The notes beneath the pieces were generated by a model. The model made no database searches and was not told the origin of the DNA. It saw nothing but the letters and a program-made list of their open reading frames with translations. From Rhodothermales bacterium (GTDB lineage: Bacteria > Bacteroidota > Rhodothermia > Rhodothermales > VXPQ01): DNA of 64,000 nt. Each line of letters opens with the position of its first letter. Position 1 is the stretch's first letter. The position numbers and the translations under genes were made by a program. Positions 23,933-37,474 of this stretch are shown here, piece by piece. The stretch is from NCBI GenBank assembly GCA_951812345.1, contig OX638295.1, positions 748,497-812,496 on the forward strand. Direction: 5' to 3'.

Positions 23933-24091
23933 TCAGTTTTTCGCCGTCACGGTCACGATCACCCGGCGGTAGCGCGTAAGCGGGGGGTTGCCGGTGTCAG
24001 TCGCTTCCAGTACGATATGGATGGTTGCCCTGGGCGGGGTGTCTTCCGGCACCGTGAACGACGCTTCGGCCCGATCCGCATTTTGCAGCAT
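23933..24091 (-). pseudogene. orphan C-terminal fragment of a DUF1593 protein (52 aa)
   Basis: MLQNADRAEASFTVPEDTPPRATIHIVLEATDTGNPPLTRYRRVIVTV aligns by eye with the C-terminus of 35951-37474 (ITNASSMEASLVVPE..IQVILTAHDDGEPVLYRYRRIIVTV). Confidence 0.75.
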
Positions 24092-24099
24092 AATCCCCC

Positions 24100-25065
24100 T
24101 CACAACCTCGCAAACACCCCGAATTCGTCCGCATTCTCCGGGGTCACCAGTTCGCAATCGACGGCCTGTTTCTCGGGCAAGGCGCTTGTGCCCGTCTGCA
24201 GGTAGGCATCCGCCTGATCCACGGCCATCTGCGCCAATTGCGCTGCTGGTTGGAGCACCGTTGCGGCAATGTCTCCTGCCTTGATGGCGGCGAGTACGTC
24301 CGGGCTACCGTCGAAACCGACCACGATCACATGCCCCATACCGGTGGCCTTCAGAGCCGCTGCAGCGCCCAGCGCCATCGTGTCGTTGCCCGCAATCACG
24401 CCCTTGATATCGGGGTGCGCCTGGATAATGGTTTCCGTTTTGTCGAACGCTTCTGTCTGGCTCCAGTTGGCGCTCTGCCGGGTCACCAGTTCCATCTCCG
24501 GGAACTGCCCGATGGTGTCGTTATATCCCTGTGATCGGATGTGCGCGTTCGTGTCGGACTCCTTGCCCGTCAGTTCCACGTACGGCCCGGCTTCGCCCAT
24601 CAGCCGGACGAATTCCTCCGCGCCCAGCACGGCGCCCTGGTAATTGTTCGATACAATCTGGGCGACGGCAAGGCCGTTGGCGTTGATCTCCCGGTCGATG
24701 AGAAAGGTGGGAACGCCCGCGGCATGCGCTTTCTCGACGGCGGCAATGGAAGCGTCCGCGCCTGCGTTATCCAGCACGATGGCGTCGGCCTTGCGCGCAA
24801 TGGCCGTGTCGAACAGTTGATCCTGCAATGCGGCGTCTCCGTTGTGGGTCTGCACGAGCGTTTCGTACCCCAGTTCCTGCGCCCGGGCGTCCGCAGCCTC
24901 GGCCTCTGCTTTGAAGAACGGGTTGTCGTGCGAGGGGGTAATGATGACCATGAGGCGCGCATCCTCCTGCGCCGGTTGGTCTGCCTCGTTCCGGCACGCA
25001 GCATGGGGTAGCGTCAGGAGGAGGGCAAGGAGCGGAAAACAAAACTTCCTGGAACGGTTCTTCAT
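24100..25065 (-). CDS. sugar ABC transporter substrate-binding lipoprotein (RbsB-like, probably apiose-type)
   Basis: [24 protein letters not shown] and VVGFDG motifs. Lipobox HAAC. Confidence 0.9.
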
Positions 25066-25069
25066 GACG

Positions 25070-25873
25070 TTATGGGGTTACGGAAAATGTTTCTTTCATC
25101 CACGCCTGCCACGCGGGTTCGTCGCGGGCCGCGATAGCGGGCGCTTCGTCGCCGTACAGGTAGATCCCAATGGTGACCATGGCGCAGTCGCCCATCGAGA
25201 ACGCAGATGCCGAGGCGATTCCGGGGATCGGCTCGTCCAGCCGGATCACGGCGTACGGCTGCCTGTGGCCATCCACCTGTTCCACGACGCCCGTCAGGGA
25301 GGGCGGACCGGGGGGCGAGGTCCAGCGGGCGCCTTTCCGGAGATCGGCCATGCCGAGGGCATCGGTCAGGCCGCTCCAGGCCTCGCTTGTTGAACCGGAA
25401 GCCTGCCCCATGGTCCGGACGATCGAAGCAGGCTGTCCGCGAAAGCGGGTAAGATAGATCCGCAGTATAGCGAAAAAGTACGGCCAGCCGGACTCGATAC
25501 CCTCAAGCTGTTCTCTCTGCTCGTCGGTTCCCCCGGACATGCTGTGGATCACCCGGACCAGGCAGGTGCTCCCGGATAGGGGTTCCACGATCCATTCGGT
25601 GGTCATCGGCGCTGCATCCGGGCCCGCGCCCGGTCCCTCGGCGGCAAGCCGGTGCGGCGGATCCCAGACGGTGACGCTGGACAGGCTTTCCATTCCCGGT
25701 CCCATCAGGGTTCGGATTACACCCCCCGTTTTCTCTTCGACTTCGGTGGGGCAGAACCAGGAAGAAACCCCCGGTCCGGTGGCGACAGCCTTCCAGACTT
25801 CTTCTACGGTTCCCGGTACCTCGACCTCGACCTGGATCGACTGGCGACCGGACGCATCACGTTTTACGCTCAT
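25070..25873 (-). CDS. SRPBCC/AHSA1-domain protein, paralog 2
   Basis: [35 protein letters not shown] and ESGW motifs. Confidence 0.8.
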
Positions 25874-34907: not shown

Positions 34908-34919
34908 AGTTATTATTTT

Positions 34920-35906
34920 TCAGATGTTTCCCAGAAACAGGTCGAGTACGAGCCGCTGTGCGGCGAGCGCATCCTGGCGGATTTGCGCTTCCCGGAGGGC
35001 TTCAACGTCGAGACGGTCCAACAGCGCATCGAGTTTGCGCAGGGTTACAATGCTTTCGCGGGCAGCCTGCACAGGATCTTCGCGAAATGGAAATTGATCC
35101 AACAGCACCACATCGTCCCATCCAATCTTGCGCAAGGCGTGGAGGAATTCCAGCGTTTCGATAAGATGGACGGACCCCACGGTCAGGTCGTCGTCCCACT
35201 CGCGCCAGTTGTCGTTGACTTCCACGCTCGTCAGCCGTTCCCGGCGGTGCGCCAGTTGCAGGGCCTCCGCAGGGGTTTCCTTTGCGAACAGGGAATGGCC
35301 GAGGTCCATTACGATGCCCACATTGTCCACCCCCATGTCCTCGATGGCCAGCAGGGTCGTAGCCACGTTGCAGAAAAGCATGTGGGTGCGCGGCTCCTTG
35401 AACTTGCACTCGATGCCGAACTGCATGTCCGGGGCCGAGGCCGCCACTTCGCGGACGGCGTCCACGGAGTATTGCCACAGGTCCTCGTAGTCGGCCTGAA
35501 ACGGGTAATCATACCCGTCCTGGCCCGGCCAGAACTTGACGTACCGGGCGCCCAGTTCGCGGGCGGATGGGATAGCCGTCTTGTACAGTTCGATGCAGTC
35601 GCGCCGCAGGGTGGGGTCCGGGTTCGTCAGACCGCCTTTGCGGTATTTGCGGCTGTAGGAGGCAGGCGTAATGGCGTGGCAGCGCAGCCTGTTCCGGTCG
35701 AGAGCGGCGGCGATATCGGCCGTCGATACTCCTTCGTCGAACGGAAAATTGATGTCGAGGGTTACGAGGTCACCGACCTGTCCTGCCCGGTCGATGGCTT
35801 CCAGCACGCCCACGGGCGGGCCGTATGCATCGGTGGCGTACCGGTCGATGAATTGCCCGAACAGCCACAGGCCGGCGCCGAATTCATACCGCGAGGGTGC
35901 ACTCAT
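34920..35906 (-). CDS. xylose-isomerase-like TIM barrel, probable D-apiose isomerase (ApsI-like)
   Basis: FGAGLWxF..IDRYAxDxYGP N-terminus, WPGQDG, ECKFKEPR, DLGH and NDN..WDDDL motifs. Clustered with the kinase and split transketolase. Confidence 0.85.
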   Translation of the reverse strand: MSAPSRYEFGAGLWLFGQFIDRYATDAYGPPVGVLEAIDRAGQVGDLVTLDINFPFDEGVSTADIAAALDRNRLRCHAITPASYSRKYRKGGLTNPDPTLRRDCIELYKTAIPSARELGARYVKFWPGQDGYDYPFQADYEDLWQYSVDAVREVAASAPDMQFGIECKFKEPRTHMLFCNVATTLLAIEDMGVDNVGIVMDLGHSLFAKETPAEALQLAHRRERLTSVEVNDNWREWDDDLTVGSVHLIETLEFLHALRKIGWDDVVLLDQFPFREDPVQAARESIVTLRKLDALLDRLDVEALREAQIRQDALAAQRLVLDLFLGNI

Positions 35907-35950
35907 GAGGATAATGTGATTACGATGTACTGTCTGTTCGTGTATGCGCG

Positions 35951-37474
35951 TTAGTCTTTTCCAACCGTCACGATGATCCGACGGTACCGGTACAGAACGG
36001 GTTCGCCGTCGTCATGTGCCGTGAGAATGACTTGAATCTCTGCGCCGACAGCATTTTCCGGGACGACAAGGCTTGCTTCCATGGACGAAGCATTCGTTAT
36101 GGAGACATCGCCCGGATACGAGCCGGCCTCGGAATAGACCCACCAGTCGAATGTGAGATGGTCTCCATCGGGGTCTGACGATCCCTCGGCGCTCAGGCGA
36201 ATCGTCTCGCCGATGTGTGCGGTGATATGGAGAGGGTCCAGACCGGCGTCGCCGTTCACGACCAGCATCGGGTTGTGGTTCGCCCCGGCGAAGTCCGGCG
36301 TGTTGCTCCAGTCCGCCCGTGCGGCGATGTCGTGCTGGTACCCTTCCCGCCAGCGCCACACCGTGGCGTGGTTCGTGGTGTACGTGTTGCCGTCAAAGGC
36401 CAGCACGGTATCGTCCGAATTGGTCCAGATAGGCCGGGATTCTCCTTCGGGCTGCGATACGGCATAGCGGCCGCCCCAGCCCCCGTAACTCGGGCTGACG
36501 TGTCCGGCCAGCCCGTTCCGGAACAGGTTCATGAACGAGGGGGTGTCGCCTTCCATCAGGTAGGCTGTAGCCGGGTAACGTGTCCCCAGCGGCCCGTGCC
36601 CGGTGCGGATATTTTCCGATAGCCAGGGATTATCGACGATGTCGAAGTTCGGCCCCTCGAACATCCCGTGGAAGTGGTCCCCGGAAATGCCCACCCAGGT
36701 GGCGTATTTGTAGTCGTCACCGTCATGCGGCGAGCTGGGCGTCACTACATAGAACAGGTCGGGAAATTCCTGCCGCATCCAGGGGCCGGAATCGTCCTGG
36801 TCGGAAATCGTGTACACGCGCAGTTTGGCCACGAAGGCGTCCAGTTCTTCCGAGGTGCGCGTCTCGCGGACTTTCCACAGGGCCTGCGCAAGGCAGTTGG
36901 CCCCTCCCCAGACGCTGATCCACAAGGGGCGGTCGTCCTCCTTGTCCACGGCGGCGATGATGTGTTCGGAGCCTTCCGTATCGTTTCCCTTGCCGACGCC
37001 GTTCATGCCGTATACATCCCGGCACGTTTTCACCTGCGAGAGCAGAAAATCCGCCTCCGGGTAGCCGTCGGCGTGTACGATGAGGTTGTTGCGCACTTCA
37101 CGGTATGCCTCGATATGGCCCCGGATTTTGTCCGCCCGTGTGGTGTCCCGCATCCAGACGGACGTGGTGGCGAGCAGGCCCTCTACATCCATTTCGTTGG
37201 CGTAGAGCAGGAAGCGGACGAGCGATTGGGCGTCGTCCGGTTCGTTTTCGATGTCCGTGAGGACGAGCACCCGCGATTTGGAGGATGGAGCGGGCAGGGG
37301 GGCGTTCTGTGCCTCGCCGGCGGAGTTGGAGCAGGCGGTGGGGAGGAGCGTCGCGGCAATGAGCAGGGCTGCGAGCGAGCCTCCGGATTGTTGCACCGGG
37401 GTTTTGCTTTCCGCGGTTTTCGCAGTAAGAATGCGGGCCCCGGCAGGTTCGGAGCATGAGAAGGCGTCGCGCAT
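35951..37474 (-). CDS. DUF1593 (nucleoside-hydrolase-like) lipoprotein with C-terminal Ig-like domain
   Basis: VLTDIENEPDDAQS, WGGANCLAQAL, ISDQDD, MEGDTPS, GGWGGRY and ANHNP motifs. Lipobox PTAC; start uncertain. Confidence 0.85.
   Translation of the reverse strand: MRDAFSCSEPAGARILTAKTAESKTPVQQSGGSLAALLIAATLLPTACSNSAGEAQNAPLPAPSSKSRVLVLTDIENEPDDAQSLVRFLLYANEMDVEGLLATTSVWMRDTTRADKIRGHIEAYREVRNNLIVHADGYPEADFLLSQVKTCRDVYGMNGVGKGNDTEGSEHIIAAVDKEDDRPLWISVWGGANCLAQALWKVRETRTSEELDAFVAKLRVYTISDQDDSGPWMRQEFPDLFYVVTPSSPHDGDDYKYATWVGISGDHFHGMFEGPNFDIVDNPWLSENIRTGHGPLGTRYPATAYLMEGDTPSFMNLFRNGLAGHVSPSYGGWGGRYAVSQPEGESRPIWTNSDDTVLAFDGNTYTTNHATVWRWREGYQHDIAARADWSNTPDFAGANHNPMLVVNGDAGLDPLHITAHIGETIRLSAEGSSDPDGDHLTFDWWVYSEAGSYPGDVSITNASSMEASLVVPENAVGAEIQVILTAHDDGEPVLYRYRRIIVTVGKD

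What the first reader, a model, noticed from the sequence alone, without database searches (positions are those of the whole stretch)
23933..37474. Extended D-apiose utilisation cluster with several uncharacterised members
Seen: 13 co-oriented, tightly spaced genes in the order DUF1593, isomerase, OMP, split transketolase, FGGY kinase, DUF2291, ABC ATPase, permease, 2x SRPBCC, binding protein, DUF1593 fragment. Known: isomerase (ApsI) + kinase (AplK) + split transketolase (AptAB) is the transketolase route for the branched pentose D-apiose. Inference: this organism catabolises apiose, which is abundant in seagrass/duckweed pectin and plant glycosides. It uses an ABC importer rather than SusC/D, and the extra genes may supply undescribed release and uptake steps.
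Basis: partly seen in the sequence, partly recalled or inferred. Interest (0 to 1): 0.75.

Follow-up and report, generated by a model that had tools for sequence, protein, structure and literature searches.

The report
Rearranged apiose-utilisation gene cluster
This bacterium carries the already known gene set for importing and breaking down the plant sugar apiose, here interleaved with unrelated neighbour genes, missing its usual regulator, and headed by an uncharacterised enzyme-like protein that may free apiose from plant glycosides.

Summary
Thirteen co-oriented minus-strand ORFs lie at 23934-37474 in the stated order.

The core is isomerase, split transketolase, GlpK-like kinase, DUF2291, ABC ATPase, permease and binding protein. 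This is the cross-phylum cluster for the transketolase route of D-apiose.
- The binding protein is 68% identical to the one in the Rhizobium etli oiaX/apionate locus.
- The enzymes are 42-51% identical to those of the E. coli SE15 cluster, whose carriers grow on apiose.
- The isomerase's only strong PDB match is 3KTC.

DUF2291 belongs to the known systems and is not an extra.

The outer-membrane protein and the two SRPBCC genes look like passengers. They occur in none of 80 related clusters, and they persist intact in sister species where the catabolic genes were not found.

The usual SorC regulator is absent from the whole genome.

The DUF1593 lipoprotein is the one interesting extra. It is the genome's only copy. 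The family recurs in 14 of 80 apiose loci across six phyla, keeps an invariant acidic cluster, and the genome shows no GH140 or GH28. It is a candidate apiofuranoside hydrolase, untested.

Verdict: known pathway, new variant. No activity was measured.

The parts
35951..37474 (-). DUF1593 / Sde182 nucleoside-hydrolase-like protein (507 aa). It has a hydrophobic leader ending in Cys, so it is a probable lipoprotein. Candidate apiofuranoside hydrolase or furanose binder.
   Evidence: PF07632 at 357.9 bits and PF21027 at 90.2 bits. Matches 2YHG at 338.9 bits. It is the only PF07632 match in the genome. D80, D81, Q226, D227, E308, G309 and D310 are invariant in 25 of 25 aligned family members.
34920..35906 (-). 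Xylose-isomerase-like TIM-barrel isomerase (328 aa), the ApsI-type D-apiose isomerase candidate.
   Evidence: PF01261. Matches 3KTC at E 5.7e-99, 334.7 bits, over its full length; the next PDB match scores 52 bits. It is adjacent to the split transketolase in 70 of 80 related loci.
33573..34907 (-). Outer-membrane beta-barrel protein (444-aa ORF; the likely start is the Met at 34871). Belongs to no Pfam family. Probably a passenger gene.
   Evidence: Signal-like N-terminus and C-terminal Phe. Homologues in 27 of 41 genomes of the order. Model mean pLDDT 72.2, with an N-terminal alpha/beta domain followed by a barrel. Foldseek matches autotransporter barrels, OmpG and NanC. Found in 0 of 80 apiose loci.
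32698..33552 (-). Transketolase N-terminal subunit (284 aa), AptA-type.
   Evidence: PF00456 at 150.8 bits. 51% identical (137/270) to E. coli SE15 ECSF_RS02710.
31760..32776 (-). Transketolase C-terminal subunit (ORF 338 aa; the true start is uncertain and overlaps the preceding gene), AptB-type.
   Evidence: PF02779 and PF02780. 42% identical (121/286) to E. coli SE15 ECSF_RS02715.
30240..31838 (-). FGGY kinase of the glycerol-kinase subfamily (ORF 532 aa; the start is probably near residues 19-31). AplK-type apulose kinase candidate.
   Evidence: FGGY_N and FGGY_C. Passes NF000756 (555 bits, cut-off 498) but fails TIGR01311 (551 bits, cut-off 590). 45-47% identical to the E. coli apiose-cluster kinase, against 44% to E. 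coli GlpK. A separate GlpK-like gene lies elsewhere in the genome.
29536..30243 (-). DUF2291 periplasmic lipoprotein (235 aa), the accessory protein of this ABC transporter type.
   Evidence: PF10054 at 179.3 bits. The same gene is present in the R. etli and E. coli apiose transporters and in 47 of 80 loci.
27920..29539 (-). CUT2 sugar ABC transporter ATPase with a double ATP-binding cassette (539 aa).
   Evidence: ABC_tran in two stretches. Similar to xylose and ribose transporter ATPases, below their cut-offs.
26855..27910 (-). CUT2 ABC transporter permease (351 aa).
   Evidence: PF02653 at 158.3 bits.
25924..26724 (-). Di-domain SRPBCC protein 1 (266 aa). Probably a passenger gene.
   Evidence: AHSA1 and Polyketide_cyc2 on residues 11-143. 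Model pLDDT 86.6 with two START-like halves. Best folds are DynU16 and the di-domain ARO/CYC proteins BexL and StfQ. Found in 0 of 80 apiose loci.
25070..25873 (-). Di-domain SRPBCC protein 2 (267 aa), a tandem paralogue of the previous gene (57% identity).
24100..25065 (-). CUT2 periplasmic sugar-binding protein (321 aa), candidate apiose binder.
   Evidence: PF13407 at 195 bits. Matches 5IBQ at E 6.8e-120 and 4RY0 at 1.7e-119. 68% identical to R. etli p42f RHE_RS26605, which sits in an oiaX locus.
23934..24091 (-). 52-aa remnant of the C-terminal domain of a second DUF1593 gene.
   Evidence: 51% identical over 47 aa to residues 459-504 of the full protein. 53-58% identical to the C-termini of the other DUF1593 subfamily, including the copy that follows the binding protein in L043.

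Best explanation
The locus is a working copy of the known transketolase-route D-apiose system. It is set in a genus-specific, rearranged context in a 2.8-Mb Rhodothermales genome.

Inferred mechanism, from homology only:
1. The periplasmic binding protein captures apiose. The DUF2291 / ATPase / permease transporter imports it.
2. The TIM-barrel isomerase converts apiose to apulose.
3. The GlpK-like kinase phosphorylates apulose.
4. The split transketolase passes its two-carbon unit to glyceraldehyde 3-phosphate. The products are xylulose 5-phosphate and dihydroxyacetone phosphate. (This chemistry is recalled from Carter et al. 2018, which I could not read.)

The DUF1593 lipoprotein most likely acts first, in the periplasm or at the outer membrane, on apiofuranosides. 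It would release or present apiose.

The outer-membrane barrel and the two di-domain SRPBCC genes are resident neighbours that became interleaved with the cluster. They are probably co-transcribed with it but are not part of the pathway.

The SorC-type regulator that normally sits between the kinase and DUF2291 has been lost. Control must therefore be constitutive or come from elsewhere.
For: CORE PATHWAY
- The binding protein matches 5IBQ and 4RY0 at E about 1e-120. It is 68% identical to the R. etli p42f protein. That protein's neighbours are annotated OiaX (3-oxo-isoapionate-4-phosphate decarboxylase), a four-carbon acid-sugar kinase, DUF2291, ATPase, permease and a Gfo/Idh/MocA oxidoreductase.
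- The E. coli SE15 cluster holds FGGY kinase, binding protein, DUF2291, ATPase, permease, a SorC-type regulator and a split transketolase. Identities to it are 45% (kinase), 51% (AptA), 42% (AptB), 45% (binding protein) and 26% (DUF2291).
- Strains carrying that cluster grow on apiose as sole carbon source. The Pectobacterium version also carries apsI (PMC13001218, passages read).
- The isomerase's only strong PDB match is 3KTC, at 334.7 bits and about 50% identity over the full length.
- Among 80 loci found with the isomerase, 70 hold both transketolase halves, 69 the kinase, 47 DUF2291 and 50 the binding protein. Most are in the order ISO-TKN-TKC-FGGY-regulator-DUF2291-ATPase-Perm-SBP, across many phyla.
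- The genome has a separate GlpK-like gene that groups with E. coli GlpK (SH-aLRT 99). The cluster kinase groups with the other cluster kinases of Rhodothermales and Vicinamibacterales (SH-aLRT 99).

PASSENGER GENES
- The OMP and both SRPBCC genes occur in 0 of 80 loci.
- OMP homologues at 62-71% identity in other families have no apiose genes nearby. Their neighbourhoods are heterogeneous.
- OMP-SRP1-SRP2 stay intact in G010, G006 and G009 (G009 keeps only SRP2). No orthologous isomerase, AptA or binding protein was found in those genomes.
- The SRPBCC family has 3209 homologues in unrelated phyla.

REGULATOR
- The gene between kinase and DUF2291 is PF04198 / SorC in 7 of 7 sampled clusters.
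- PF04198 has no match in this genome.

DUF1593
- It is the only copy in the genome.
- In the order, all 4 copies in the three well-assembled genomes that have both genes lie next to the isomerase: G000, G005 and G030 (two copies).
- It occurs in 14 of 80 loci, from six phyla.
- The acidic cluster is invariant.
- A review states that the Sde_0182 domain keeps its Ca2+, is inactive on nucleosides, and is thought to bind a furanose (PMC8910321, passages read).
- No GH140 match above cut-off and no GH28 match in the genome.
Against: - Nothing was assayed. Every step is inferred from homology and gene context.
- Carter et al. 2018, which characterised ApsI, AplK and AptAB, is not held. I could therefore not compare directly with the characterised sequences.
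- That 3KTC comes from Pectobacterium, and that 5IBQ is an apiose complex, are both recalled and not shown by any search.
- The kinase is barely closer to the E. coli cluster kinase (464 bits) than to E. coli GlpK (443 bits).
- In the quick tree the GlpK clade nests among the cluster kinases, so 'apulose kinase' is not a clean clade.
- NCBIfam gave no apiose-specific model for any gene.
- The cluster has decayed or is missing at this site in sister species. Loss of the regulator could be a first step in the same decay.
- DUF1593 is not exclusive to apiose loci. Six of 41 genomes of the order have it without the isomerase. Linked and unlinked members are interspersed in the tree. 66 of 80 loci show none, although many of those are truncated.
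- The OMP and SRPBCC genes are tightly packed and co-oriented with the pathway genes, so a local role cannot be excluded.
Confidence: 0.72

Rival explanations
1. All 13 genes form one functional apiose/apioside system. The OMP would be the outer-membrane channel for apiose or small apiosides. The SRPBCC proteins would handle the hydrophobic aglycone released from plant apiosides, or the ring forms of apiose.
For: - Tight, co-oriented packing, with the OMP between the isomerase and the transketolase. The same arrangement appears in contigs of other runs.
- A diderm with an ABC importer needs some outer-membrane passage.
- The SRPBCC model resembles proteins that bind aromatic polyketides, such as DynU16 and CalU16.
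- In G005 the conserved binding protein (96% identical) stays next to OMP-SRP1-SRP2 while the rest of the pathway lies elsewhere.
Against: - OMP and SRPBCC occur in 0 of 80 apiose loci, including other diderm lineages.
- OMP-SRP1-SRP2 are intact in relatives where no catabolic genes were found.
- OMP paralogues sit in unrelated contexts.
Confidence: 0.12
2. The cluster handles a different sugar, such as ribose, a tetrose or tetritol, or another ketose, and not apiose.
For: - Annotation pipelines name the binding protein 'D-ribose ABC transporter substrate-binding protein' and the PDB entries 'probable ribose ABC transporter'.
- The kinase passes the GlpK subfamily model.
- No apiose-specific family model matched.
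Against: - The closest binding-protein relatives sit in a locus annotated with OiaX, an apionate-pathway enzyme.
- The gene set and order match the E. coli cluster shown by growth assays to support apiose use.
- The isomerase is far from true xylose and rhamnose isomerases: 52 bits or less in the PDB, and scores far below cut-off in NCBIfam.
Confidence: 0.07
3. The cluster is intact in sequence but functionally on its way out. It would be unregulated or silent, a remnant like those in sister species.
For: - No SorC regulator in the genome.
- The sister species G006, G004, G002, G009 and G010 carry broken or missing versions at the same site.
- A 52-aa DUF1593 remnant lies at the end of the cluster.
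Against: - All 12 full-length genes are open. Those with a counterpart in the E. coli or R. etli loci, or in the PDB, align over most of their length.
- Contigs of other runs carry near-identical copies at 98-99%.
Confidence: 0.09

Closest known systems
Transketolase-route D-apiose cluster of Pectobacterium and E. coli ST131/SE15 (MetaCyc PWY-8089; Carter et al. 2018, not readable here; PMC13001218, passages read)
   Same: FGGY kinase, split transketolase, CUT2 binding protein, DUF2291, ATPase and permease are all present. Protein identity to E. coli SE15 is 42-51%. As in Pectobacterium, there is a TIM-barrel isomerase rather than the two SDR oxidoreductases of E. coli.
   Different: No SorC regulator. 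An OMP lies between the isomerase and the transketolase, and two SRPBCC genes lie between the permease and the binding protein. A DUF1593 lipoprotein sits at the head. The genes form a single co-oriented string.
Rhizobium etli CFN42 p42f apiose/apionate locus (binding protein RHE_RS26605; PDB 5IBQ and 4RY0)
   Same: The binding protein is 68% identical, and the transporter layout with DUF2291 is the same.
   Different: R. etli pairs the transporter with the oxidative route: OiaX, a four-carbon acid-sugar kinase, a phosphogluconate-dehydrogenase-like protein and a Gfo/Idh/MocA oxidoreductase. It has no isomerase, kinase or transketolase of the type seen here.
Sde_0182 of Saccharophagus degradans (PDB 2YHG), founding DUF1593 / PF07632 structure
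   Same: Strong sequence match at 338.9 bits, with the same NH-like and C-terminal domains. The review reports that the Ca2+ site is kept and that the protein has no nucleosidase activity.
   Different: According to the review, Sde_0182 carries carbohydrate-binding modules. The window protein has only a lipoprotein-like leader. Neither protein has a demonstrated substrate.
GH140 endo-apiosidase (Pfam PF13204 'Apiosidase')
   Same: It is the known enzyme type that frees apiose-containing fragments from pectin, which is the role proposed here for DUF1593.
   Different: It has an unrelated fold and family. This genome has no match above the family cut-off.
Di-domain SRPBCC proteins DynU16, BexL and StfQ, and the single-domain CalU16
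   Same: The predicted fold, two START-like halves, matches at Foldseek E of 1e-9 to 1e-11.
   Different: Sequence identity is only 13-18%. There is no polyketide locus here, and the function is unknown.

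Membership tests
Transketolase-route D-apiose catabolic cluster (ApsI / AplK / AptAB) | A xylose-isomerase-like TIM-barrel isomerase homologous to ApsI | tested here: inconclusive
   334.7 bits to 3KTC over the full length, and adjacent to the transketolase and kinase in 70 of 80 loci. That 3KTC is the Pectobacterium protein is recalled.
Transketolase-route D-apiose catabolic cluster (ApsI / AplK / AptAB) | A split transketolase (two subunits) encoded beside an FGGY kinase | tested here: met
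   Pfam domains. Identities to the E. coli SE15 cluster proteins are 51% and 42% for the transketolase halves and 45% for the kinase.
Transketolase-route D-apiose catabolic cluster (ApsI / AplK / AptAB) | The kinase is distinct from the housekeeping glycerol kinase | tested here: met
   A second GlpK-like gene (47% identity) groups with E. coli GlpK at SH-aLRT 99. The cluster kinase lies in a separate clade, also at 99. The cluster kinases as a whole are not monophyletic.
Transketolase-route D-apiose catabolic cluster (ApsI / AplK / AptAB) | A linked CUT2 ABC importer whose binding protein resembles the apiose-locus binding protein | tested here: met
   68% identity to R. etli RHE_RS26605 in an oiaX locus. 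E about 1e-120 to 5IBQ and 4RY0.
Transketolase-route D-apiose catabolic cluster (ApsI / AplK / AptAB) | A SorC-type regulator within the cluster | tested here: not met
   Present in 7 of 7 sampled clusters and in E. coli. PF04198 has no match in this genome. This is a regulatory feature, not a catalytic one.
Transketolase-route D-apiose catabolic cluster (ApsI / AplK / AptAB) | Enzyme activities on apiose, apulose and apulose 4-phosphate, and growth on apiose | not testable with these tools
DUF1593 / Sde182 NH-like (PF07632) | Full-length match to the family model and to the C-terminal domain PF21027 | tested here: met
   357.9 bits and 90.2 bits, against cut-offs of 26.8 and 27.
DUF1593 / Sde182 NH-like (PF07632) | A conserved N-terminal Asp cluster of the nucleoside-hydrolase type (metal and sugar site) | tested here: met
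   D80 and D81 are invariant in 25 of 25 sequences and D74 in 23 of 25. Q226, D227, E308, G309 and D310 are also 25 of 25. That these residues bind Ca2+ is inferred from the review, not modelled here.
Glycoside hydrolase acting on apiofuranosides (proposed role of DUF1593) | Hydrolytic activity on an apioside | not testable with these tools
   Only gene context supports this: 14 of 80 loci, and the sole genomic copy sits in the cluster.
SRPBCC / START superfamily | Helix-grip fold with a ligand cavity | tested here: met
   AHSA1 and Polyketide_cyc2 matches. Model pLDDT 86.6 with two such domains. Foldseek matches DynU16, BexL and CalU16.
Outer-membrane beta-barrel protein | Signal peptide, amphipathic beta-barrel and C-terminal aromatic residue | tested here: met
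   Sequence features. Model with about 13 long strands over residues 174-420. Foldseek probability 1.00 to OmpG, NanC and autotransporter barrels, but TM-scores are only about 0.3.

The most novel reading that the evidence does not exclude
DUF1593 (PF07632) is a family of Ca2+-dependent glycosidases with a nucleoside-hydrolase fold that act on furanosides. The members linked to apiose clusters, including the window's lipoprotein, would be beta-D-apiofuranosidases. They would release apiose from small plant apiosides or apiogalacturonan fragments in the periplasm. This would give a function to a structure (2YHG) that has had none, and a second, unrelated route to free apiose besides GH140.
Probability: 0.3. 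Interest if true: 0.75.

Novelty: new variant of a known kind. Interest (0 to 1): 0.45.

Why it matters
Apiose is a major sugar of seagrass and duckweed pectin, of rhamnogalacturonan-II and of more than a thousand plant glycosides. Its bacterial catabolism was worked out only in 2018.

The pathway here is not new. Three points are useful.

1. **DUF1593 and apiose.** The recurrent linkage across six phyla turns a domain of unknown function, which already has a crystal structure, into a directly testable candidate for the missing apiose-release step. That matters most in organisms without GH140.

2. **A caution about gene context.** Tight, co-oriented packing made the OMP and SRPBCC genes look like pathway members. 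Comparison with 80 related loci and with sister species shows they are neighbours.

3. **Turnover of an accessory pathway.** The genus shows the pathway being rearranged, replaced (G005) and lost (G006, G010, G009, G004, G002). One species keeps only the binding protein at the old site.

Tried and rejected
- **Carter et al. 2018.** Neither the DOI nor PMC6435334 is held. I could not compare directly with the characterised ApsI, AplK, AptAB or SBP sequences. I also could not see whether that paper's genome-neighbourhood tables already list DUF1593 or DUF2291.
- **Literature searches.** 'D-apiose + apulose + transketolase' gave 0 papers. 'DUF1593' gave 0. 'DUF2291' gave 0. PF07632 / Sde0182 / 2YHG gave one relevant review. 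apsI / aplK / aptA / 3KTC gave only PMC13001218. apiosidase / apiofuranosidase / 'nucleoside hydrolase-like' listed 25 of 57 papers; no listed title or abstract links the NH fold to apiose, and the full texts were not read.
- **NCBIfam.** No apiose-specific model matched.
- **The search for homologous proteins on the isomerase.** Only generic names came back, such as 'xylose isomerase' and 'sugar phosphate isomerase/epimerase'.
- **Kinase tree.** It was meant as a clean orthology test. The careful search did not finish and only the quick tree was used. In it GlpK nests within the cluster kinases, so it only separates the window kinase from the genome's own GlpK.
- **Promoter and terminator scan of 23500-38000.** 2 promoter-like sites against 2.9 expected, and 18 terminator-like sites against 13.2 +/- 3.8. 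Nothing above chance.
- **Rfam and tRNA scan.** No RNA element in the cluster. The only hits are two tRNAs near 52 kb.
- **Sequencing runs.** No RNA holder is listed, so co-transcription could not be examined.
- **Earlier findings of this scan.** Nothing to show.
- **ESM Atlas on the SRPBCC protein.** Only unnamed SRPBCC clusters.
- **Considered and rejected: the OMP as an apiose-specific porin.**
- **Considered and rejected: the long plus-strand ORF 33825-35954 as a gene.** It is antisense to two genes with homologues.

Full report
**1. What is there**

The window has about 61% G+C, so spurious long ORFs are common. Pfam and codon-position G+C pick out 13 minus-strand ORFs between 23934 and 37474:
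- DUF1593 (PF07632 + PF21027)
- a xylose-isomerase-like TIM barrel
- a 444-aa ORF with no Pfam match
- the N- and C-terminal halves of a transketolase
- an FGGY kinase
- DUF2291
- a double-cassette ABC ATPase
- a permease
- two 266/267-aa SRPBCC proteins
- a periplasmic binding protein
- a 52-aa ORF

Neighbouring genes overlap or lie at most 50 nt apart, except for 130 nt before the first SRPBCC gene.

- The 444-aa protein has a signal-like N-terminus and ends in Phe. It has homologues in 27 of 41 genomes of the order. It folds as an N-terminal alpha/beta domain plus a beta-barrel (mean pLDDT 72.2). The barrel matches OmpG, NanC and autotransporter barrels, but only generically, at TM-scores of about 0.3.
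- The 52-aa ORF is 51% identical to the last 47 residues of the full DUF1593 protein.

Contigs from other sequencing runs bridge the unusual junctions. One of 6583 bases spans 28635-35217 with 64 differences, and one of 4072 bases spans 29948-34019. The arrangement is therefore real.

**2. The core is the known apiose system**

- *Binding protein.* It matches PDB 5IBQ and 4RY0 at E about 1e-120. It is 68% identical to a Rhizobium etli CFN42 p42f protein. The annotated neighbours of that protein are OiaX (3-oxo-isoapionate-4-phosphate decarboxylase), a four-carbon acid-sugar kinase, DUF2291, an ATPase, a permease and a Gfo/Idh/MocA oxidoreductase. That is an oxidative apiose/apionate locus.
- *E. 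coli comparison.* The E. coli SE15 cluster (ECSF_RS02670-02715) contains two SDRs, permease, ATPase, DUF2291, binding protein, FGGY kinase, a sugar-binding regulator and a split transketolase. Identities to the window proteins are 45% (kinase), 51% and 42% (transketolase halves), 45% (binding protein) and 26% (DUF2291).
- *Experimental anchor.* PMC13001218 (passages read) reports three things. Strains with this cluster grow on apiose as sole carbon source. The Pectobacterium version carries apsI where E. coli has the SDRs. The cluster is predicted in 98 genera. PMC13753588 (passages read) summarises one transketolase route and three oxidative routes.
- *Isomerase.* Its only strong PDB match is 3KTC, at 334.7 bits over the full length and about 50% identity. 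True xylose isomerases score 52 bits or less. That 3KTC is a Pectobacterium protein, and that 5IBQ holds apiose, I recall. No call shows either.
- *Kinase.* It passes the GlpK subfamily model but not the GlpK equivalog. It is only slightly nearer to the E. coli cluster kinase than to E. coli GlpK (464 against 443 bits). The genome has a separate GlpK-like gene. In a quick tree that gene pairs with E. coli GlpK (SH-aLRT 99), while the window kinase sits with the cluster kinases of Rhodothermales and Vicinamibacterales (SH-aLRT 99). The GlpK clade nests among the cluster kinases, so the tree is not a clean orthology test.

**3. The canonical cluster and how the window departs from it**

A scan of species-representative genomes with the isomerase returned 80 loci. 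The closest carry titles of Rhodothermales MAGs, which places the window's organism in that order. Hits in those loci:

| Gene | Loci with a hit (of 80) |
|---|---|
| Both transketolase halves | 70 |
| Kinase | 69 |
| DUF2291 | 47 |
| ATPase | 50 |
| Permease | 48 |
| Binding protein | 50 |
| OMP | 0 |
| SRPBCC | 0 |

Many loci are cut by contig ends. The usual order is ISO-TKN-TKC-FGGY-x-DUF2291-ATPase-Perm-SBP. It is seen in Rhodothermales, Acidobacteriota, Gemmatimonadaceae, Chloroflexota, Trueperaceae, Heliobacteriaceae, Actinomycetota and others.

Gene x is a SorC-type regulator (HTH + PF04198) in 7 of 7 clusters sampled, as in E. coli. In the window the kinase stop overlaps the DUF2291 start, and PF04198 has no match anywhere in the 2.82-Mb single-contig genome.

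DUF2291 is therefore a standard transporter part, not an extra. The window differs in four ways: the regulator is missing, an OMP is inserted, two SRPBCC genes are inserted, and a DUF1593 gene sits at the head.

**4. The OMP and SRPBCC genes are neighbours, not pathway members**

- *OMP outside the genus.* Homologues at 62-71% identity have no apiose genes within the fetched 11-20 kb. Their neighbours are heterogeneous: an M28 peptidase, BlaR1/BlaI pairs, a sugar-acid cluster, GH43, Omp85.
- *SRPBCC distribution.* In the order, this SRPBCC type occurs only in five genomes of the window's genus, always beside the OMP. Globally it has 3209 homologues at about 50% identity in Planctomycetota, Acidobacteriota, Myxococcota and others.
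- *SRPBCC fold.* The model (pLDDT 86.6) has two START-like halves. It is closest to DynU16 and the di-domain aromatase/cyclases.
- *The site in sister species*:

| Genome | Arrangement at the same site |
|---|---|
| G010 | sulfatases-OMP-SRP1-SRP2 |
| G009 | OMP-SRP2 |
| G006 | DUF1593 fragment, isomerase with an internal deletion, OMP-SRP1-SRP2 |
| G004, G002 | OMP plus a DUF1593 fragment |

- *Catabolic genes elsewhere in those genomes.* No orthologous isomerase or AptA was found in G002, G004, G006, G009 or G010. No orthologous binding protein was found in the four of them searched, G002, G006, G009 and G010 (G004 was not searched with it). The best hits were 28-36% paralogues, apart from G006's own broken isomerase remnant at this site.
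- *G005.* It keeps OMP-SRP1-SRP2 plus the binding protein (96% identical, its only orthologue) at the old site. About 131 kb away it carries a canonical DUF1593-ISO-TKN-TKC-FGGY-SorC-DUF2291-ATPase-Perm cluster without a binding protein. That cluster is only 59-86% identical to the window's, no closer than the cluster of a different family (G030).

So the OMP and SRPBCC genes outlive the pathway, and the pathway is gained, replaced and lost around them. How the three blocks of apiose genes came to be interleaved with them is unexplained.

**5. DUF1593 is the one extra with a recurrent link to apiose**

- *In this genome and its order.* It is the only PF07632 match in this genome. In the order, 12 of 41 genomes have the family. 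In the three well-assembled genomes with both genes (G000, G005, G030), all four copies lie directly upstream of the isomerase.
- *Across the 80 loci.* 14 contain it, as 18 ORFs in 1.34 Mb. For a rough comparison, the order shows 16 matches in about 161 Mb. Kin are not independent. The lineages are Rhodothermales (3), Solirubrobacteraceae (6), and one each of Patulibacter, Spirochaetia, Blastocatellia, Spartobacteria and Steroidobacter.
- *The fragment.* In seven loci DUF1593 directly follows the binding protein. This explains the 52-aa remnant in the window, which is most similar to C-termini of that second subfamily.
- *Conserved residues.* In 25 aligned sequences D80, D81, Q226, D227, E308, G309 and D310 are invariant. 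Two subfamilies (TDIxNEPDD and TD--xExDD) both occur in apiose loci.
- *What is known of the family.* A review (PMC8910321, passages read) reports that the Sde_0182 NH-like domain keeps its Ca2+, is inactive on nucleosides, and is thought to be a furanose-interacting module.
- *Localisation and need.* The window protein has a hydrophobic leader ending in Cys. The genome shows no GH140 match above cut-off and no GH28.
- *Counter-evidence.* Six genomes of the order have DUF1593 without the isomerase. Their contexts include a GH78 rhamnosidase, a SusC/FecR locus, an AraC regulator, or nothing sugar-related. Linked and unlinked members are interspersed in the tree.

The family is therefore broader than apiose. 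I rate an apiofuranosidase role for the linked members as plausible, at about 0.3, and unproven.

**6. Verdict**

The pathway is already known and widespread. The window is a new variant of it: it has no regulator, it is interleaved with passenger genes, and it is headed by DUF1593.

The most useful product is the testable DUF1593-apiose hypothesis. I could not read Carter et al. 2018 or its supplements, which may already record this neighbourhood link.

Noticed in passing
window 20855-23930 (+): A GH32 (fructan or sucrose hydrolase, 537 aa) followed by a sugar-porter MFS transporter (459 aa) converges on the end of the apiose cluster. Both are 94-97% conserved in G005. In G006 only GH32 fragments remain.
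   Followed up: partly
window 37751-42024: Two sulfatase ORFs on opposite strands overlap by about 420 nt as called (37751-39394 minus strand, 38976-40835 plus strand), so their true starts are probably later. A GH16 follows. In sister species these genes are variously intact, fragmented or frameshifted.
   Followed up: partly
G005 (loci L022, L033, L034): This sister species keeps the apiose-type binding protein (96% identical) at the old site, next to OMP-SRP1-SRP2. Its ATPase, permease and catabolic genes lie about 131 kb away in a divergent canonical cluster without a binding protein. The transporter may therefore be assembled from two loci.
   Followed up: partly
L121 (G031) 9810-14514: In a genome without the apiose isomerase, a DUF1593 gene 48% identical to the window's is followed, co-oriented, by a GH78 alpha-L-rhamnosidase. 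This hints at a role in plant glycoside breakdown more generally.
   Followed up: no
L014 (G026) 1276-8091: An OMP homologue (64% identical) sits inside a sugar-acid cluster holding a four-carbon acid-sugar kinase, a cupin, an enolase-superfamily enzyme and a mannitol-dehydrogenase-like protein.
   Followed up: no
window 53630-56977 (-): A 1115-aa protein with leucine-rich repeats and six K319L-like PKD domains. It gives weak matches to the Sde0182_C domain model.
   Followed up: no
window 16001-18000: G+C dips to 0.536 against about 0.61 elsewhere, and only short ORFs were called there. No Rfam or tRNA match.
   Followed up: no
window 6466-9969 (+): SecA of 1167 aa, with a large insertion inside the DEAD-like motor domain: the Pfam match spans residues 7-626 for a 290-position model.
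   Followed up: no
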